Shown: positions 14,628 through 20,752 of the stretch, piece by piece
How positions within the stretch are numbered: the stretch's first letter is position 1
Layout: every line of letters starts with the position of its first letter
Source of the DNA: Gemmatimonadota bacterium
Lineage (GTDB): Bacteria > Gemmatimonadota > Gemmatimonadetes > Gemmatimonadales > GWC2-71-9
NCBI GenBank assembly: GCA_041486305.1
Contig: JBGPLG010000013.1
Coordinates: 153-64,152, forward strand
Reading direction: 5' to 3'
Length of the DNA stretch: 64,000 nt
The notes under the pieces: model-generated
Seen by the model: the letters and a program-made list of their open reading frames with translations, nothing else
Told to the model about the DNA's origin: nothing
Databases searched by the model: none
Translations under genes and position numbers: made by a program

Positions 14628-15236
14628 TTACGGATTGCCGTGGTGACCTCGGCCATTGTCGTGCCCGTTGTCCCGACGGTTGTCCCTGCCATCCCGGTTG
14701 TCGCGCCGGTCGTCTCGACCGTCCCGGCGATTGTCGCGCCGGTCGTCCCGTCGGTCTTCACGCCGATTGTTGTTGAAGCGGCGGTCATCGCGCGGGTCAT
14801 ACCGGGGCCGCTCGTACCGCTGGTCATACCGGGGCACCTGATAGCGCGGCTGACTGTACCCATACCCGTACCCCGGGAAATCGTAGCCGTCGTCCTCGAG
14901 CCGGTAGTAGCGGCCGTCGCGCTCGAAGAGCCTGATTTCCAGGAGGCCAGGGCGGAACCGGTCGAAGTAGTAGCTGTCGTCGTCCCGATCCCAGAACACC
15001 ACGACCAGCCGGCTGCCCCGCTGGAACGAGCGCCACCAGTCATCCCGGCGGTAGTCGCGCGACCGCACCCACTCCACCCCCCGAATCGGGCGAGGGCGTC
15101 CACCTATGGAGATCCGGCCGGCGATCGGGCCCCCGCCGATGATGATATCCGCGCTGACCCGTTGAGCCTGCGCGGGCATGGCGGTAAAGAGCGGAAGCAG
15201 CAGTCCGAGGCCGAGTACTGAATTTCGAGCGTTCAC
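14628..15236 (-). CDS. Secreted hypothetical protein with an Arg/Asp-rich low-complexity repeat tail
   Basis: GTG 15236 preceded by GGAGG; signal peptide ending AQA; DRRDDRRDNRRD repeats. Confidence 0.7.
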   Translation of the reverse strand: MNARNSVLGLGLLLPLFTAMPAQAQRVSADIIIGGGPIAGRISIGGRPRPIRGVEWVRSRDYRRDDWWRSFQRGSRLVVVFWDRDDDSYYFDRFRPGLLEIRLFERDGRYYRLEDDGYDFPGYGYGYSQPRYQVPRYDQRYERPRYDPRDDRRFNNNRREDRRDDRRDNRRDGRDDRRDNRDGRDNRRDNGHDNGRGHHGNP

Positions 15237-15282
15237 GATGTCCTCCACGAAGAATGCAGCGCCTTCCTGCCCTGACCCCCGA

Positions 15283-15298
15283 AGCGAGCGCCGTGCCA
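15283..15298 (-). promoter_or_regulatory. Sigma-54 (-24/-12) promoter candidate
   Basis: Minus strand TGGCACGGCGCTCGCT versus consensus TGGCACG-N4-TTGCW, one mismatch; about 47 bp upstream of GTG 15236. Confidence 0.65.
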
Positions 15299-15446
15299 AT
15301 TCGTATCTTCTTATGCCGCAACGCAAACGCGTCGGGGCCCGCCCGGGAGTGTCCTCAAGCCGGGACACCCGGAGGGTCGGTTGAGACACCGGCCGACAGC
15401 CCGGCTATATTCGGCCCCTTGGCTTTCACCCGTGCGGAAGGCTTCG

Positions 15447-15947
15447 GTGTCACAGGGATTCAAGGTGTCGGTCTCCAAGGAGTACCTTGGCTTCTCGTCG
15501 GCGCACTTCATCACGCTGGCGGGTCACCAGTGCGAGTCCCTCCACGGCCACAATTACAGAGTCGGGCTGACGGTAGAGGGGGGAGTCGACCCGGAGTGCG
15601 CCTTCGTGGTGGACTTTGCGGTGCTCAAGCGGATTGTCCGGCCCTACGTCCATGCGGTGGATCACCGGGTGCTGTTACCCACCCTGAATCCCAAACTGGT
15701 CCTGACCACCGAAGGCGACCGGATGCTGGTGGAGTACCAGGGAACCCCTCGCTTTGTATTTCCGCTGTCCAACTGCGCCCTGATTCCGATCACCAATACG
15801 ACGGCGGAAATGATCGCGGAATACCTGGCGCGTCGACTGCGGGACGACCTCCGAGAGGAGGGCCTCCCGCACCTGGATGCGATCGAGGTGGAGGTCGAGG
15901 AAAGCGTGGGTCAGGCGGGGTACTTCAGACTGGGGATGAGCGAGTAG
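15447..15947 (+). CDS. queD: 6-carboxy-5,6,7,8-tetrahydropterin synthase / PTPS family
   Basis: FSSAHF, CESLHGHNY, VDFAVLK, VDHRVLLP, TTAEMIA, VEVEES; start taken at GTG 15447. Confidence 0.85.
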   Translation: MSQGFKVSVSKEYLGFSSAHFITLAGHQCESLHGHNYRVGLTVEGGVDPECAFVVDFAVLKRIVRPYVHAVDHRVLLPTLNPKLVLTTEGDRMLVEYQGTPRFVFPLSNCALIPITNTTAEMIAEYLARRLRDDLREEGLPHLDAIEVEVEESVGQAGYFRLGMSE

Positions 15948-15973
15948 CCCTCCTTCCTGCTCGCTGTTCGTTG

Positions 15974-16321
15974 CTAGCTGACCAACGGCTTCTTGGGTCC
16001 CACCAGGCTAGAATCCCGTCCGGGCTGCCAGGTGACCTGCTTCTCGATCAGTGCCGCTACCTCGAAGTCCTTGGTCGTAATTCCACCCGCGCTGTGGGTG
16101 GAGAGCGCGACGCCTACGCAAGGCCAGGTGACGGTCAGGTCCGCGTGGTGATCCGCCGCCTCGCAGATGAACCCGATGGCGTTCGCCACCAGCATAGACC
16201 CGCGCCAGCCGTCAGTCTTGTAGGTGCGCCGAATCGCCCCGTTTTCGAAGGCCCAGGCCGGTAGCGCCTTGAGCCGCGCCTGGATCTCGGATGGAGCAAG
16301 CGCCTGTTCCTTTTCCGGCAT
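15974..16321 (-). CDS. phhB: Pterin-4-alpha-carbinolamine dehydratase
   Basis: EAADHHADL, LSTHSAGGITTKDFEVA. Confidence 0.88.
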   Translation of the reverse strand: MPEKEQALAPSEIQARLKALPAWAFENGAIRRTYKTDGWRGSMLVANAIGFICEAADHHADLTVTWPCVGVALSTHSAGGITTKDFEVAALIEKQVTWQPGRDSSLVGPKKPLVS

Positions 16322-16330
16322 GACCCCTCC

Positions 16331-16370
16331 TAGCCTCTTAGCGTCTGAGCGTCTGAGCGTCTGAGCGTCT
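16331..16370 (+). repeat. Five-unit 8-mer tandem array TAGCCTCT/TAGCGTCT/(GAGCGTCT)x3 between the pfkA stop and the phhB RBS
   Basis: Read directly; CTCCTAGCCTCTTA (16327-40) is identical to 9797-9810. Confidence 0.92.
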
Positions 16371-17505
16371 AGTCTCCCAGGCTGATCCCCAGATTGCGAG
16401 CGGTCATGATGATTCCGCTGTCCAGCGGGACCAGCTTCGGCTGCCCGATGATCTGGATCAGGGGCACTCGGCTCACGGTGGGCGGCGTGTACACGACGCA
16501 GGAGCCGAAATCACCCGCGGCGATGGCGCGCACCGCGCCCGAACCGAATCGCAGCGCCAGGAGTCGATCGAAGGTGGTCGGAGAGCCGCCCCGCTGCAGG
16601 TGCCCGAGCACCAGGCACCGGGTTTCCTTACCGGTCCGTTCCCCAACGGCCTTCGCGACTTCCTCCCCGATGCCCCCCAGCCGCTCGGCTCGACCGCCGC
16701 CGGCCCGCTGGCGCAACACGATCTGTCCTCCGGCCGGCCGCGCGCCTTCGGCCGCCACGACGATCGAGAATCGGCGACCCCGCTGCTCCCGTTCGATGAT
16801 CTTCTGGCACACCTTGTCGATGTGGAAGGGGATTTCGGGTATCAGGATGACATCCGCGCTGCCCGACAATCCGCTGTGCAGCGCGATCCAGCCGGCATAG
16901 CGTCCCATCAGCTCCACCACGAACACCCGATCGTGGCTCTCGGCCGTGGTGTGAATCTTGTCCAGCGCGTCGGTCGCGGTGCTTACGGCCGTGTCGAATC
17001 CGAACGTTGATTCGGTGCCCGCCACGTCGTTGTCGATGGTCTTGGGGACGCCGACCACCGGGATGCCCTTCTCGAACAACCGATGGGCGATCCCGAGGCT
17101 GCCGTCGCCGCCGATGGCCACCAGCGCATTGAAGCCGTGAGCCCGGAACGCCGCGATGAGCTCGTCGGACCGGTCTTCCTCGGCGATGATCCCGTCCGGC
17201 TGGAGCCGGGGCCACTCAAAGGGATTGCCGTAGTTGGTGGTACCCAGGATGGTGCCGCCCAGATGGGTAATGCCCCGCACTTCGCGCGGCCCCAGAGGTA
17301 TCAGCCCCAGGTCGGGCTCGCCCGGAATCATCGGGATGGGACGATTGTCTTTGCGGTAGCGATCCTCGGGGGGGAACAGACCGTCATACCCTCGGCTGAT
17401 GCCGTAGGTCTCCCAGCCCCGTTGATGCGCCGACAGCACTACCGCGCGAATGACGGCATTGAGTCCCGGCGCGTCGCCGCCGCCGGTCGAAATTGCGATC
17501 TTCAT
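16369..17505 (-). CDS. pfkA: 6-phosphofructokinase (PfkA family, group III-like)
   Basis: GGGDAPGLNAVIR, GGTILGT, GGDGS, PKTIDND, ELMGR, GHLQRGG. Confidence 0.93.
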   Translation of the reverse strand: MKIAISTGGGDAPGLNAVIRAVVLSAHQRGWETYGISRGYDGLFPPEDRYRKDNRPIPMIPGEPDLGLIPLGPREVRGITHLGGTILGTTNYGNPFEWPRLQPDGIIAEEDRSDELIAAFRAHGFNALVAIGGDGSLGIAHRLFEKGIPVVGVPKTIDNDVAGTESTFGFDTAVSTATDALDKIHTTAESHDRVFVVELMGRYAGWIALHSGLSGSADVILIPEIPFHIDKVCQKIIEREQRGRRFSIVVAAEGARPAGGQIVLRQRAGGGRAERLGGIGEEVAKAVGERTGKETRCLVLGHLQRGGSPTTFDRLLALRFGSGAVRAIAAGDFGSCVVYTPPTVSRVPLIQIIGQPKLVPLDSGIIMTARNLGISLGD

Positions 17506-17515
17506 TCGATCCTTT

Positions 17516-17746
17516 TTAGGTCCGGAGGGCCCGGATCAGGCTGACGACCTCGCCCGGATTGGCATGCCGGCCCAGCTGTTTCTTGGAAAAGACCGCCGTA
17601 CCGTCCACCGTAACCTCGAATACCCCCCCCGAGGCCGGGATCAGCGTGATTCTTGCGTCCCTGAATTCCTGCTCGAGCTCCGCCGCCAGACCGGCGGCGC
17701 GACGCTCATAGTTTCAAACCACGCAGTACTGAATGCTGATCTGCAT
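17516..17746 (-). CDS. SelW/SelT/SelH (Rdx) family selenoprotein, 76 aa, Sec at codon 11 (TGA 17716-17714)
   Basis: Hand translation MQISIQYCVVUNYERRAAGLAAELEQEFRDARITLIPASGGVFEVTVDGTAVFSKKQLGRHANPGEVVSLIRALRT; CxxU, GGxFEV and FSK are Rdx hallmarks; absent from the ORF track. Confidence 0.9.
17681..17699 (-). promoter_or_regulatory. Bacterial SECIS element candidate
   Basis: mRNA stem CGCCGCC / loop GGUCU / GGCGGCG; the loop starts 22 nt after the UGA. Confidence 0.75.
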
Positions 17747-17834
17747 CGATTCACCGGGTTAGTGTGTGCAACCAGTCGGGAGAATCCTGCTTCCGGAGCC
17801 CGACGATGGCAAGGGACCCAATTAAGATGAAACT

Positions 17835-18908
17835 ATGCTGAACGCCCTACTGCTCGTCGCCACGATTACCGTCCCGGAAACCACCCCGGTCCGGGCGATA
17901 TACGTCAACGCCTGGACCTTCGGGACCAAGAAGTTCTACCAGTTGGCGCACCTGGCCGAAACAACCGAGGTCAACGCCCTCGTCATCGACGTGAAGGACG
18001 ATACGGGGTACCTGACCTTCCGGTCCGCGGTACCGGTGGCCCTGGAAATCGGCGCCAATGGGCAGCTCCGGGCCCGTGACGCCCGGGAGCGCGTGGCGCT
18101 GCTCAAGGCCAAGGGGATTCGCCCGATTGCCCGGATTGTCGTGGCCAAGGACCCCCTGCTCGCCGCGCACAAGGCGGCTTGGGCCATCCAGAACGGATCC
18201 GGTGGGGCGTGGACCGACCGGAAGGGCACCAAGTGGGTGGACGCCTTCAACGATTCGGTCTGGGTCTACGCCGCCGCCCTCGCCGCCGAGGCGGTGAGCA
18301 TCGGCTTCGAGGAGATTCAATACGACTACGTCCGGTTCCCCGACGAGTCGAGAGAGCGGATGGCCAAGGCGGTCTTTCCGGCCCGGCGGGGCATCGAATC
18401 CGCCCGGGAAGGAATCACCCGGAACCTGGCCCTGCTGGCCGCGCGCACCCGGGCGCTCAAGGTGCCGTTTACCATCGATGTCTTCGGGCTCACGACCACC
18501 GCCGAAGACGACATGGGAATCGGCCAGTACTGGGAAGACCTGGTGTCCAGTGCCGACGTGGTGCTTCCGATGGTGTATCCGAGTCACTACCGACGCGGCG
18601 TGTACGGGGTCGCGCGGCCCAATGCGTCACCTTACACCATGGTGAAGCGAGCTATCGAGGACGGGCTCCGCCGGAACAAGGCCCTGGCTCCCAGACGAAT
18701 CGCCGAGATCCGGCCCTATCTCCAGGCCTTCACACTGGGGCCGCCGCGCTACACTTCCTTTCAGGTGCGCGAACAGGTCCGGGCCCTCACCGACCTGGGC
18801 ATCCAGTCGTGGGTGCTCTGGAATCCGCGCTCGGCGTATGAGCGGGGGTACTTCCGGCCCGACACCCTGCCCGCCCCTCGTCCGGTCGGAGGGTCATCAC
18901 AGCCGTGA
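17835..18908 (+). CDS. Putative glycoside hydrolase (DUF4015-like TIM barrel), secreted
   Basis: NALVIDVKDDTG, ARIVVAKD, FEEIQYDYVRFP, PMVYPSHY, RPYLQAF. Confidence 0.75.
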   Translation: MLNALLLVATITVPETTPVRAIYVNAWTFGTKKFYQLAHLAETTEVNALVIDVKDDTGYLTFRSAVPVALEIGANGQLRARDARERVALLKAKGIRPIARIVVAKDPLLAAHKAAWAIQNGSGGAWTDRKGTKWVDAFNDSVWVYAAALAAEAVSIGFEEIQYDYVRFPDESRERMAKAVFPARRGIESAREGITRNLALLAARTRALKVPFTIDVFGLTTTAEDDMGIGQYWEDLVSSADVVLPMVYPSHYRRGVYGVARPNASPYTMVKRAIEDGLRRNKALAPRRIAEIRPYLQAFTLGPPRYTSFQVREQVRALTDLGIQSWVLWNPRSAYERGYFRPDTLPAPRPVGGSSQP

Positions 18909-20752
18909 GTTCCGTGGGACGATCGGCGGGATGCCTGGGCGGCAAGGCCGCCCTGGCCTGTGTTCTTCTCACCGTTCCGCTGATGGCCCAGCGGCGGCCC
19001 GCGCCGGCAGCCCCCTCGGGTCCGCCGCCGGGGGACTGGCAGTCGGCCGGACGAGACAACGCGCTCACCCGTTATAGCCCGCTGGACCAGATCACCACGG
19101 CGAACGTGGCCCAGCTCCGGCCGGCATGGACCTTCTCGACCGGTGCGCTCCGAGGCCACGAGGGCAATCCGCTGGTCGTGGGCTCCCTGATGTTCGTCCA
19201 TACTCCCTATCCCAACGCGGTCTACGCGCTGGATCTTTCGCTGCCCGGAGCCCCGATCAAGTGGAGCTACCTCGCCCCGTTGCCCGGTCCCGCGCCGAAG
19301 GGAGTGCCCGGTGAGCCGCCGCGGATTCCCCCGATGCCCACCGGATGCTGTGACGTCGGAAGCCGAGGTCTCGCCTGGCATTCCAGCGGCAAGATCTACG
19401 TGCCCCTCCTGAGCGGGGAGCTGGCCGCACTCGACGCCGCCACCGGCCGGGAGATCTGGCGGGTGAGAAACGCGGACCCCAAGCTCGGTGCGACGCTGGC
19501 GGCGGCGCCGCTGGTCGTACAGGACCTGGTCATCGCCGGCGTCTCGGGAGCCGAGTACGGTGTGCGCGGTTATCTGACTGCGTACGACGCGTTGACCGGG
19601 CGGCTGGTCTGGCGGGGGTACAGCACCGGCCCCGATTCCGACGTGCTGATCGACGCCGCCCCGAATCCCAACTACGTCTCGCACCAGGGCCGGGATCTCG
19701 GCGCGACGACCTGGGGTGGAGAGGCGTGGCGTCAGGGAGGCGGCACCGCTTCCGGATGGATCTCCTACGATCCCGGGCTCAACCTGGTCTACTACGGAAC
19801 CGACCAGCCCGCGCCCGGCAACCCGGCGCAGCGTCCGGGAGACAACAAGTGGACTTCGTCGATCCTGGCGCGGGAGACCGCGACCGGGAAGGTACGCTGG
19901 GCCTTTCAGATGACTCCGCACGACGAGTGGGGCTATGGCGGGTCCAATGAGAACATCCTGGTGGACCTCACGATTCACGGCGCCCCGGTCAAGGCGCTGG
20001 TGCACTTCGACCGGAACGGTTTCGCCTATGCGCTGGACCGCGCCACCGGGCGCGTACTGGTGGCTGAGCGCTTCGGCCCCGCCAACTGGGCCCGCGCCAT
20101 CGACCTGAGCAGCGGCCTTCCCCAGCGCGACCCTCAGTATGCCGCGCCCGCCCCCTCGGCCCCGCCGGGCGCGGGCGCGGCACGGCGCGCGATACCCGGG
20201 CCGGTTACCACCGGCGTCTGTCCGGGAAGCATCGGGGCCAAGTTTCTCGAGCCGGCGGCCTATTCGCCGCTGACCAACCTGTTCTATCTCCCGCTCAACA
20301 ACCTCTGCATGGAGCTTCGGATCAGCCCCGCAGCCTACGCCGCCGGGGAGCCGTATTCGGGCGTTTCCGTCAAGATGACCGCGGGACCCGGCGGTAACCG
20401 TGGCCGCTTCATCGCCTGGGACGCGGCAGCCGCAACCATCGCCTGGGAAGTGAAGGAACCCCTGGCGGTGGCGAGCGGTGCGCTCACCACCGCGGGGGGC
20501 CTGGTGTTCTACGGCACCCTCGATGGATGGCTCAAGGCGCTCGACCAGCGGACCGGCCGTGAGCTCTGGCGGTTCAAGACGCCCTCGGGCATCATCGGCA
20601 GCCCCATCGCCTTCTCCGGCCCCGACGGCAAGGAGTACATAGCGGTGCTGTCGGGCATCGGCGGTTGGTGGGGACTCGGCGCCAACGGGGCATTCGCGGA
20701 CATCGGTTCGGTGAGCAATCCTGGCGGCGTGCTGCTGGTCTTCGCCCTGTGA
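18905..20752 (+). CDS. PQQ-dependent methanol/ethanol-family dehydrogenase homolog with an altered active site
   Basis: RYSPLDQIT, GHEGNPLV, vicinal CCD, SGAEYGVRG, PHDEW, LVHFDRNG, GGLVFYGTLDG, W-docking repeats. Confidence 0.85.
   Translation: MSSVGRSAGCLGGKAALACVLLTVPLMAQRRPAPAAPSGPPPGDWQSAGRDNALTRYSPLDQITTANVAQLRPAWTFSTGALRGHEGNPLVVGSLMFVHTPYPNAVYALDLSLPGAPIKWSYLAPLPGPAPKGVPGEPPRIPPMPTGCCDVGSRGLAWHSSGKIYVPLLSGELAALDAATGREIWRVRNADPKLGATLAAAPLVVQDLVIAGVSGAEYGVRGYLTAYDALTGRLVWRGYSTGPDSDVLIDAAPNPNYVSHQGRDLGATTWGGEAWRQGGGTASGWISYDPGLNLVYYGTDQPAPGNPAQRPGDNKWTSSILARETATGKVRWAFQMTPHDEWGYGGSNENILVDLTIHGAPVKALVHFDRNGFAYALDRATGRVLVAERFGPANWARAIDLSSGLPQRDPQYAAPAPSAPPGAGAARRAIPGPVTTGVCPGSIGAKFLEPAAYSPLTNLFYLPLNNLCMELRISPAAYAAGEPYSGVSVKMTAGPGGNRGRFIAWDAAAATIAWEVKEPLAVASGALTTAGGLVFYGTLDGWLKALDQRTGRELWRFKTPSGIIGSPIAFSGPDGKEYIAVLSGIGGWWGLGANGAFADIGSVSNPGGVLLVFAL

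What the first reader, a model, noticed from the sequence alone, without database searches (positions are those of the whole stretch)
17516..17746. Hidden selenoprotein gene (SelW/Rdx, CxxU) with a SECIS-like hairpin, missed by ORF calling
Seen: ATG 17746 gives MQISIQYCVV-TGA-NYERRAAGLAA..., which continues in frame for 65 more codons with Rdx hallmarks (GGVFEVTVDG, VFSKK, GRHANPGEV). A 7-bp stem with a GGUCU loop follows the UGA (loop at +22). Established: bacterial SECIS elements lie just 3' of the UGA, and the E. coli fdhF loop contains GGUCU. Inference: the organism recodes UGA as Sec. The gene lies 10 bp upstream of pfkA on the same strand, suggesting co-transcription and possibly Sec-based redox control linked to glycolysis.
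Basis: partly seen in the sequence, partly recalled or inferred. Interest (0 to 1): 0.75.

Follow-up and report, generated by a model that had tools for sequence, protein, structure and literature searches.

The report
SelW-like selenoprotein gene upstream of pfk
This is a genuine small selenoprotein gene of the well-known SelW/Rdx family, hidden from ordinary gene callers because its 11th codon is a UGA read as selenocysteine, so it is real but belongs to a known kind; its fixed position directly in front of the phosphofructokinase gene across Gemmatimonadota appears to be new.

Summary
Window 17516-17746 (-) encodes a 76-residue Rdx/SelW-like protein (MQISIQYCVV-U-NYERR...) with an in-frame TGA at 17714-17716, followed by a 7-bp hairpin with a GGUCU loop.

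The Sec reading is strongly supported:
- Pfam and NCBIfam scores are above their cutoffs, and the predicted fold matches SelW-related crystal structures.
- The UGA aligns with the second Cys of CxxC in solved homologs.
- The genome (a Gemmatimonadales MAG) carries selA, selB, selD and a tRNA-Sec(UCA).
- TGA is otherwise the commonest stop codon.
- All 110 orthologous loci examined keep the TGA.
- The hairpin shows clear compensatory covariation.
- Genomes that lack the gene mostly lack selA too.

Bacterial SelW-like selenoproteins have been catalogued since the mid-2000s, so this is a new member of a known kind.

The pfk gene follows directly in 30/30 close relatives and 55/63 further Gemmatimonadota loci, so an operon is likely. 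Redox control of PFK is not supported:
- There is no linkage-specific cysteine in PFK.
- Sec-less relatives keep pfk without any Rdx gene.
- In other phyla the gene precedes unrelated enzymes.

Side finding: a MerB-family gene elsewhere in the genome also carries a conserved in-frame UGA with a GGUC-loop hairpin.

The parts
17516..17746 (-). SelW/Rdx-like selenoprotein CDS (76 residues plus TAA stop), codon 11 = UGA read as Sec
   Evidence: Translation. Pfam PF10262 E 3.2e-22, 78.9 bits against a 22.6 cutoff. NCBIfam NF041051 97.9 bits against 88, and TIGR02174 65.9 against 34.2. AF2 pLDDT 95.3 and TM 0.88-0.90 to 2fa8.
17714..17725 (-). CxxU redox motif codons: TGC GTG GTT TGA (Cys8-Val-Val-Sec11); TGA at 17714-17716
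   Evidence: U11 aligns with the second Cys of YCTQC in 2fa8 and 2obk. YC[VL]V-TGA is invariant in 30 relatives, and TGA is at the aligned codon in 80/80 further loci. The motif sits at the beta1/alpha1 junction in the model.
17680..17701 (-). bSECIS-like hairpin inside the coding sequence: C16-G37 pair, unpaired G17, 7-bp stem (17693-17699 with 17681-17687), GGUCU loop (17688-17692)
   Evidence: Fold. Covariation on 100 distinct sequences: 93.3% of cells paired, 5 of 8 pairs with double changes, 75 double-change cells, 0/500 shuffles reach this, slide controls 17-65%. Same loop letters as E. coli fdhF, 3 nt further from the UGA.
17506..17515 (-). 10-nt spacer AAAGGATCGA between the selW-like stop and the pfk ATG, with an AAGGA Shine-Dalgarno-like element (17510-17514)
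   Evidence: Sequence. No terminator-like site between the genes. Gaps of -10 to +19 in 30/30 relatives.
16369..17505 (-). 6-phosphofructokinase gene (378 aa), the conserved downstream neighbour and probable second cistron
   Evidence: Pfam PF00365 E 1e-101. NCBIfam NF002872 359 bits against a 253 cutoff. Adjacent in 30/30 and 55/63 Gemmatimonadota loci.
17747..17834 (.). 88-bp divergent intergenic region shared with the DUF4015 gene (17835-18908 +); presumed promoter region of the selW-pfk unit
   Evidence: ORF layout. DUF4015 assignment. No sigma-70 consensus match found, so the promoter is inferred, not shown.

Best explanation
Window 17516-17746 (-) is a functional gene for a 76-residue SelW-like (Rdx family) selenoprotein of a Gemmatimonadales bacterium.

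Translation starts at ATG 17746. At codon 11 the UGA is not read as stop. SelB.GTP carrying Sec-tRNA(Sec, anticodon UCA) is recruited by the hairpin that starts 12-14 nt downstream (7-bp GC stem, GGUCU apical loop), and selenocysteine is inserted.

The product is a minimal thioredoxin-like fold (beta1-alpha1-beta2-beta3-beta4-alpha2). It carries a Cys8-x-x-Sec11 pair at the beta1/alpha1 junction. This pair presumably cycles between a selenolate/thiol and a selenenylsulfide, acting as a thiol-disulfide-type oxidoreductase on still unknown substrates.

The gene is the first cistron of a two-gene unit with pfk.

What is shown: the gene, the family, the fold prediction, the Cys/Sec alignment, the machinery, the conservation of the UGA, hairpin covariation, co-loss with selA, and the conserved adjacency to pfk.

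What is inferred: actual Sec insertion, SelB binding, redox chemistry and co-transcription.
For: Family and fold:
- Pfam Rdx and NCBIfam SelT/W/H score above their cutoffs.
- PDB sequence hits to six SelW-related structures, best 2fa8 at E 2.3e-13, with U11 on the second Cys of CxxC.
- AF2 model pLDDT 95.3, and TM 0.88-0.90 with rmsd 1.1 A to 2fa8 and 0.73 to mouse SelW 2npb.

Sec machinery in the same genome:
- selA 518.8 bits, selB 315.5 bits, selD 391.6 bits, tRNA-Sec 69.6 bits, all above cutoff.
- ARAGORN calls tRNA-SeC with anticodon tca.

TGA is otherwise a stop: it ends 1091 of 1815 long high-GC3 ORFs.

Conservation:
- 38/41 close relatives have the gene, each with an in-frame TGA, and a 39th is cut by a contig end.
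- 129/201 genomes across the phylum have it, and all but one full-length match has a TGA.
- The TGA is at the identical codon in 110/110 loci.
- Codons upstream of the UGA vary at third positions only (TAC/TAT, TGC/TGT, GTN), so the 5' part is translated.

Hairpin: compensatory changes at synonymous sites. Pair 18-36 is GC30/CG27/AU25/UA2, and 0/500 shuffles reach the observed values.

Co-occurrence with selA: among genomes with the gene, 36 have selA and 3 do not. Among genomes without it, 3 have selA and 17 do not. Fisher p = 3.8e-9, not corrected for phylogeny.

Independent support that this organism decodes Sec with GGUC-loop hairpins: a MerB-family gene with a conserved UGA on the active-site Cys and a GGUC hairpin at nt 23.

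pfk adjacency.
Against:
- The hairpin of the single sequence is not significantly more stable than shuffles (z = -1.66).
- Part of the stem conservation is confounded with the conserved peptide RAAGLAAE.
- Rfam has no matching model.
- No promoter consensus was found.
- Three genomes have the UGA gene but no selA above cutoff. They are fragmented MAGs, so this is probably an assembly gap.
- The biochemical function of bacterial Rdx proteins is unknown, so 'oxidoreductase' rests on fold and motif only.
Confidence: 0.94

Rival explanations
1. Nonsense pseudogene or sequencing or assembly error: the TGA is a real premature stop, or a miscalled base, in a former CxxC Rdx gene.
For: A single in-frame stop in a short ORF is what a pseudogene looks like in one sequence. 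Database entries for the family are mostly truncated.
Against: The same TGA is at the same codon in 110/110 independent assemblies at 42-80% protein identity. There is amino-acid conservation and synonymous-site variation on both sides. No TGC/TGT form appears among the loci. The gene is lost entirely, not degraded, where selA is absent.
Confidence: 0.01
2. The UGA is decoded, but not as Sec: either genome-wide or local reassignment to Trp or Gly, or near-cognate readthrough. This is what the database entries reading CVVW imply.
For: Three database proteins print W at this position (P0002, P0007, P0008). Readthrough of UGA-A contexts exists in bacteria (general knowledge).
Against: TGA is the most frequent terminator of long coding-like ORFs in this genome. 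The aligned residue in solved homologs is a redox Cys, for which Trp or Gly would be non-functional. A covarying hairpin of SECIS geometry follows the UGA. Presence of the gene tracks selA.
Confidence: 0.03
3. Only the C-terminal part is made, from an internal start downstream of the UGA, as gene callers annotate (43-59 aa fragments). The first 11 codons are untranslated leader.
For: Many public annotations are exactly such fragments.
Against: In this window the first ATG/GTG/TTG after the UGA leaves only about 30 aa, and no ORF of 40 aa or more is listed. The fragment would lack beta1 and the whole CxxU motif of a 95-pLDDT single-domain fold. Codons 1-10 are conserved as protein with third-position wobble.
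Confidence: 0.02

Closest known systems
Bacterial SelW-like selenoproteins (Rdx family PF10262; TIGR02174 CXXU_selWTH; NF041051) as catalogued in prokaryotic selenoproteome surveys (e.g. Zhang et al. 2006, PMC1794560)
   Same: Same family by HMM, same CxxU motif position, same size (about 75 aa) and same SECIS placement just 3' of the UGA. As that paper notes, the family exists almost only in the Sec form in Sec-using organisms. Here there are 0 Cys forms among 110 loci, and the gene is lost rather than converted where selA is lost.
   Different: The host phylum (Gemmatimonadota) and the phylum-wide fixed position directly upstream of pfk were not found in the searched literature. This genome has no Sec-FdhA, the usual 'anchor' selenoprotein.
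Cys-containing bacterial Rdx proteins with solved structures (Agrobacterium Atu0228 2fa8; 2obk, 2oka, 2ojl, 2p0g, 3dex)
   Same: 41% identity and TM 0.9 to 2fa8, with identical topology. CxxC aligns with CxxU.
   Different: Those carry Cys-Thr-Gln-Cys and are about 100 aa with extensions. This one carries Cys-Val-Val-Sec and is a minimal 76-aa domain. None of those has an assigned function either.
Mammalian selenoprotein W (mouse SelW, 2npb) and MIEN1 (2ljk)
   Same: Same fold family (TM 0.73-0.74) with the CxxU motif at the same structural position.
   Different: The eukaryotic SECIS is in the 3' UTR and is read by SBP2/eEFSec. Here the SECIS is inside the ORF and is read by SelB. Sequence identity is only 27-30%.
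E. coli fdhF SECIS (the SelB-binding apical hairpin)
   Same: The hairpin lies immediately 3' of the UGA within the coding sequence. The apical loop letters are GGUC(U), encoded as Gly-Leu (GGU CUG) in the same frame. There is one unpaired base below the upper stem.
   Different: The loop begins at nt 25 instead of 22 from the U of UGA. It is a pentaloop on a 7-bp all-GC stem rather than a GGUC tetraloop on a 4-5 bp stem. The unpaired base is G, not U. SelB binding was not tested.

Membership tests
Rdx / SelT-SelW-SelH family (PF10262, TIGR02174, NF041051) | Scores above the curated HMM cutoffs over the full domain | tested here: met
   PF10262 78.9 bits against 22.6, model positions 1-73 of 74. 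NF041051 97.9 against 88, and TIGR02174 65.9 against 34.2.
Rdx / SelT-SelW-SelH family (PF10262, TIGR02174, NF041051) | CxxC/CxxU redox motif after beta1, aligned with that of characterised members | tested here: met
   YCVVU aligns with YCTQC of 2fa8 and 2obk. C8 and position 11 are invariant in alignment A4.
Rdx / SelT-SelW-SelH family (PF10262, TIGR02174, NF041051) | Thioredoxin-like beta1-alpha1-beta2-beta3-beta4-alpha2 fold | tested here: met
   AF2 pLDDT 95.3 with elements E2-8, H14-27, E32-38, E43-47, E50-54, H66-75. Foldseek top 21 hits are all SelW-related structures at TM 0.83-0.90, followed by MIEN1, mouse SelW and then thioredoxins. This is a prediction, not an experimental structure.
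Rdx / SelT-SelW-SelH family (PF10262, TIGR02174, NF041051) | Redox activity of the CxxU pair | not testable with these tools
   Needs purified protein.
Bacterial Sec-decoded (selenoprotein) gene | In-frame UGA that aligns with Cys in homologs | tested here: met
Bacterial Sec-decoded (selenoprotein) gene | UGA conserved in orthologs, with coding conservation on both sides | tested here: met
   110/110 loci. 129 genomes in the phylum sample, all but one full-length match with a TGA. Third-position wobble upstream of the UGA.
Bacterial Sec-decoded (selenoprotein) gene | Stem-loop (bSECIS) within about 16-37 nt 3' of the UGA, with G in the apical loop, supported by covariation | tested here: met
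   G at loop position 2 in at least 90% of sequences. Loop GGUCU in 68 of 110. The distance rule is taken from established bSECIS descriptions (own knowledge).
Bacterial Sec-decoded (selenoprotein) gene | selA, selB, selC and selD present in the same genome | tested here: met
   The genome is a 92%-complete MAG with 3.6% contamination, so that all the genes lie in one cell is assumed. This is supported by the same co-occurrence in relatives.
Bacterial Sec-decoded (selenoprotein) gene | Selenium actually incorporated at the UGA position | not testable with these tools
   Needs 75Se labelling or MS.
E. coli fdhF-type SelB-binding SECIS | GGUC-containing apical loop on a short upper stem, with one bulged base below it, about 11 nt after the UGA | tested here: inconclusive
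   Loop letters are the same, and the stem starts 12-14 nt after the UGA. However, it is a pentaloop, the unpaired base is G rather than U, and the loop is 3 nt further away. Binding by the cognate SelB is untested.
selW-pfk operon (co-transcription) | One transcript spans both genes | not testable with these tools
Only indirect support: a 10-nt gap, no terminator and conserved adjacency.

The most novel reading that the evidence does not exclude
The SelW-like cistron is functionally tied to the kinase gene it precedes, in one of two ways.

(a) It acts as a selenium-dependent gate. Failure to decode UGA at codon 11 would release ribosomes about 200 nt before pfk. In many relatives the two frames overlap or abut (gaps -10, -4, -1, 0, +1), so pfk translation or transcription would fall when Se is scarce.

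(b) It is a dedicated redox partner of PFK-superfamily kinases. The gene directly precedes PFK in Gemmatimonadota and a DAGK_cat-type kinase in Actinomycetota, and I recall, but did not test, that DAGK/NAD kinases are distant structural relatives of PFK.

Two genomes keep selA yet lack both SelW and the orthologous pfk, which hints that the pair is lost as a unit.
Probability: 0.1. Interest if true: 0.65.

Novelty: new member of a known kind. Interest (0 to 1): 0.3.

Why it matters
Practically, this is a clean example of systematic misannotation. Public protein sets hold this family as 43-59 aa fragments or with Trp at the Sec position. Gemmatimonadota proteomes therefore lack a gene that about two thirds of the phylum carries.

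Biologically, three points are useful to selenium biologists:
- A large, mostly aerobic soil phylum maintains the whole Sec machinery without a Sec-containing formate dehydrogenase, at least in this genome.
- The SelW-like gene exists only in the Sec form, and it disappears together with selA rather than converting to Cys.
- Its invariant position in front of pfk gives a concrete, testable handle on the still unknown function of bacterial Rdx proteins.

None of this changes the understanding of Sec decoding itself.

Tried and rejected
- Rfam, at gathering threshold on the whole window and at E <= 10 on 17500-17800: no SECIS-type match, only a chance snoRNA hit.
- Sigma-70 promoter and intrinsic terminator scan of 15900-18000: nothing relevant.
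- Sec-FdhA in the own genome: not found. Matches were below cutoff and had no in-frame stops. selD has no in-frame stop.
- Crude genome-wide selenoprotein screens. The first was far too noisy in a 68.5% GC genome (2292 raw candidates, 276 after filtering). Among strict CxxU/UxxC candidates only SelW looked real. The second, loop-based screen dropped SelW itself through my GC3 threshold on its short 5' part, but it turned up the MerB-like candidate. These screens cannot establish absence of further selenoproteins.
- Test of 'redox control of PFK': a search for cysteines conserved only in SelW-linked PFKs found none.
- Search for a Cys-form or remnant Rdx gene upstream of pfk in Sec-less relatives: none found.
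- Literature searches for a SelW-pfk link or for Gemmatimonadota selenoproteins: nothing found. The 2026 review PMC13188914 does not mention SelW, Rdx, Gemmatimonadota or PFK.
- The search of earlier findings: nothing on this genome or sequence.
- Early scripts failed on file layout and strand choice, because the antisense frame is open in this GC-rich DNA. This was fixed by choosing the strand by similarity.

Full report
**1. What is in the sequence**

On the minus strand, ATG 17746 opens a frame reading MQISIQYCVV-TGA-NYERRAAGLAAELEQEFRDARITLIPASGGVFEVTVDGTAVFSKKQLGRHANPGEVVSLIRALRT-TAA.
- The TGA is codon 11 (17714-17716) and the stop TAA is 17516-17518.
- An in-frame TAA lies four codons upstream of the ATG with no other start in between, so the start is unambiguous.
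- After the UGA the RNA reads UGA AAC UAU GAG CGU CGC GCC GCC GGU CUG GCG GCG GAG. Nucleotides 18-24 (CGCCGCC) pair with 30-36 (GGCGGCG) around the loop GGUCU (25-29). C16-G37 adds an eighth pair, leaving G17 unpaired.
- pfk (378 aa, PF00365 E 1e-101) starts 10 nt after the stop, behind an AAGGA element.
- The plain ORF list has nothing of 40 aa or more on this strand here.

**2. Is it more than chance?**

Taken alone, not clearly. In a 68.5% GC genome the hairpin is only 1.66 sd more stable than shuffles, and an interrupted 76-codon frame proves nothing. The case rests on comparison.

*Family.*
- Pfam Rdx 78.9 bits (cutoff 22.6). NCBIfam 'SelT/SelW/SelH family (seleno)protein' NF041051 97.9 bits (cutoff 88), and TIGR02174 65.9 (cutoff 34.2).
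- Six solved SelW-related bacterial proteins match by sequence, best 2fa8 at E 2.3e-13. In the printed alignments (2fa8, 2obk), the UGA position falls on the second Cys of their YCTQC motif.
- An AlphaFold2 model from 27 homologs has pLDDT 95.3. Its topology is beta1-alpha1-beta2-beta3-beta4-alpha2, with CxxU between beta1 and alpha1.
- The model superposes on 2fa8 at TM 0.88-0.90 and rmsd 1.1 A, and on mouse SelW at TM 0.73, ahead of thioredoxins.

*Machinery.*
- The window's genome is a 4.7-Mb, 211-contig MAG at 92% completeness. Related records identify it as Gemmatimonadales.
- It has selA (518.8 bits), selB (315.5 bits over the frame), selD (391.6 bits) and a tRNA-Sec (69.6 bits), all above curated cutoffs. 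ARAGORN calls the tRNA as tRNA-SeC with anticodon tca.
- TGA is not reassigned. It terminates 1091 of 1815 long, high-GC3 ORFs.

*Conservation of the UGA.*
- Of 41 genomes of the same genus and order, 38 have the gene, each with an in-frame TGA. A 39th, G020, has it cut by a contig end.
- All 30 loci fetched read YC[VL]V-TGA-[NHS]Y.
- Eighty further loci from the species-representative collection all have TGA at the aligned codon, and none has TGC/TGT. They are mostly Gemmatimonadota, but also Actinomycetota, Acidobacteriota, Myxococcota, Chloroflexota and one Bacillota.
- In an even sample of 201 genomes of the phylum, 129 have it. All but one full-length match has a TGA.
- Upstream of the UGA the codons vary only at third positions (TAC/TAT, TGC/TGT, GTN), the signature of a translated region.

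*The hairpin.*
- In 30 close relatives 98.3% of stem cells pair. Two pairs show compensatory double changes, both at synonymous third positions (Arg CGN with Ala GCN). None of 500 shuffles reaches this, and sliding the partner by 1-3 nt drops pairing to 23-72%.
- With 100 distinct sequences, 5 of 8 pairs show double changes in 75 cells. Pair 18-36 occurs as GC (30), CG (27), AU (25) and UA (2). Again 0/500 shuffles reach this, and slides give 17-65%.
- The loop is GGUCU in 68 of 110 sequences. The second loop base G is at least 90% conserved.
fdhF reads UGA CAC GGC CCA UCG GUU GCA GGU CUG CAC, with GGUCU from nt 22 against nt 25 here, and in both cases it is encoded as Gly-Leu in the same frame.

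*Co-loss.*
- Among the 39 genomes with the gene (38 plus G020), 36 have selA above cutoff. Of 20 genomes without it, 17 lack selA, and all 17 are at least 95% complete. This includes all eight genomes of one genus. Fisher p = 3.8e-9, uncorrected for phylogeny.
- In Sec-less genomes pfk is still there, but nothing Rdx-like lies upstream, neither a Cys form nor a remnant.
- This matches the literature statement that SelW-like proteins have few or no Cys homologs in Sec-using bacteria (PMC1794560).

**3. What it is and how it works**

The best explanation (confidence about 0.94) is a real, expressed SelW-like selenoprotein gene.
- SelB carrying Sec-tRNA(Sec) binds the apical part of the hairpin 12-14 nt downstream of the UGA and delivers Sec to the ribosome at codon 11.
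- The product is a minimal thioredoxin-fold protein whose Cys8/Sec11 pair can form a selenenylsulfide.
- The first of these two steps follows the established E. coli mechanism. It is inferred here from geometry, covariation and the presence of selB. The chemistry is inferred from fold and motif. No bacterial Rdx protein has an assigned substrate, to my knowledge.
- The stem is laid over the conserved peptide RAAGLAAE. The RNA and protein constraints are therefore superimposed, and covariation is visible only at wobble positions and at Ala/Thr/Ser/Val exchanges.

The rivals each fail several independent tests listed above: pseudogene or sequencing error, UGA read as Trp/Gly or simple readthrough, and translation of only the C-terminal fragment.

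**4. The pfk link**

- pfk follows directly in 30/30 close relatives, with gaps of -10 to +19.
- It also follows in 55 of 63 further Gemmatimonadota-labelled loci. The commonest gaps are +1 (15 loci), -10 (6) and -4 (4). Three of the eight exceptions simply run out of contig.
- None of 15 loci from other phyla has pfk. There the same position is held by a DAGK_cat kinase (Actinomycetota), proline dehydrogenase (Acidobacteriota) or TrpRS (one Anaerolineaceae genome).

A two-gene operon in Gemmatimonadota is therefore likely, but it is not shown.
- The only cysteine conserved in these PFKs (C233) is equally conserved in Sec-less lineages.
- pfk functions without the gene in Sec-less relatives.
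- The partner gene changes with phylum.

Two observations keep a specific link alive as a minority reading:
- Many relatives have overlapping or abutting frames, which suggests translational coupling.
- Two genomes (G039, G080) keep selA but lack both SelW and the orthologous pfk.

**5. Comparison with what is known, and novelty**

Bacterial SelW-like selenoproteins are in every prokaryotic selenoproteome catalogue since the mid-2000s, and NCBI has curated models for them. This is a new member of a known kind.

I did not find the following in the searched literature:
- its near-universal presence in Sec-using Gemmatimonadota;
- its fixed position ahead of pfk;
- its strict all-or-nothing coupling with selA.

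Public protein collections hold the family as truncated fragments or with W at the Sec site, so 'missed by ORF calling' is true well beyond this window.

**6. Side finding**

A loop-based scan of the genome found a second likely selenoprotein at G000:C35:24546-25232 (-).
- It is a 229-aa MerB-family protein (PF03243, E 1.3e-30) with TGA at codon 151, in the context IGFT-U-RTMLFFRSEE.
- The U aligns with the active-site Cys of MerB2 (5c17).
- A hairpin CUUCUUCC-GGUC-GGAAGAAG follows, with the loop at nt 23-26.
- The in-frame TGA is conserved in all nine congeneric genomes that have the gene (36-64% identity). In the six loci fetched it sits at the same codon and the hairpin is conserved.
- It is not the published MerB-like selenoprotein SaoL. 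That one has a CU motif and occurs in anaerobes (bioRxiv 10.1101/2022.07.06.499078), and this protein scores 49 bits against its 140-bit cutoff.
- It independently shows that this lineage uses GGUC-loop SECIS elements.

**7. Verdict**

- Observation: confirmed.
- Interpretation: right for the gene and for Sec decoding, plausible for co-transcription, unsupported for redox control of PFK.
- Interest 0.3. This is a solid, well-documented instance of a known phenomenon, with a modestly new comparative-genomic pattern attached.

Noticed in passing
L149 (G000:C35:24546-25232, minus strand; TGA at C35:24780-24782); relatives L150-L154: Second candidate selenoprotein in the same genome: a 229-aa MerB-family (alkylmercury lyase, PF03243) protein. 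It has an in-frame UGA aligned with the active-site Cys of MerB2 (5c17) and a conserved GGUC-loop hairpin 23 nt downstream. The TGA is conserved in all 9 congeneric genomes that have the gene. It is distinct from the published MerB-like selenoprotein SaoL, having a TU motif rather than CU and scoring below the SaoL cutoff.
   Followed up: partly
L111:1216-2133, L117:3245-4156, L125:4033-4755; L114:3255-4160, L116:3216-4136, L128:3243-4172; L120:3246-4235: Outside Gemmatimonadota the SelW-like UGA gene is also the first gene of a tight pair, but the partner differs. It is a DAGK_cat-type kinase in Actinomycetota, proline dehydrogenase in Acidobacteriota and TrpRS in an Anaerolineaceae genome. 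From memory, DAGK/NAD kinases are distant structural relatives of PFK. The window's PFK itself gives a weak NAD_kinase hit.
   Followed up: partly
whole genome G000: The genome keeps the full Sec machinery, but I found no Sec-containing formate dehydrogenase alpha subunit, and selD has no in-frame stop. The selenoproteome may be small (SelW-like, MerB-like and whatever my crude screens missed).
   Followed up: partly
genomes G039 and G080: Two nearly complete Gemmatimonadales genomes retain selA but lack both the SelW-like gene and the orthologous pfk. G080 has only a 36%-identical PFK. This suggests the pair can be lost as a unit.
   Followed up: no
window 16369-17505 (-): The PFK scores above cutoff only for the broad subfamily NF002872. 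It is below cutoff for TIGR02483 'PFK_mixed' (409 against 430.55) and for the ATP- and PPi-specific equivalogs. It has GGDG together with PKTIDND and an N-terminal insertion of about 25 aa (residues ~44-70), so its phosphoryl donor is not obvious from sequence.
   Followed up: no
window 14628-15389 (-): A 253-aa ORF with no Pfam match. Its C-terminal third is an Arg/Asp/Asn-rich low-complexity run (…RRDDRRDNRRDGRDDRRDNRDGRDNRRDNGHDNGRGHHGNP). It is unclear whether this is a real gene.
   Followed up: no
window 15381-16321 and 17835-20752: Neighbours of the selW-pfk pair: pterin-4a-carbinolamine dehydratase (15974-16321, -), 6-pyruvoyl-tetrahydropterin synthase (15381-15947, +), a divergent DUF4015 putative glycosyl hydrolase (17835-18908, +) and a PQQ-dependent dehydrogenase (18905-20752, +).
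   Followed up: partly
database proteins P0002-P0024: Public protein collections hold this family as 43-59 aa C-terminal fragments or as full-length entries with Trp printed at the Sec position (CVVW / CVMW). This is systematic misannotation of the family.
   Followed up: yes
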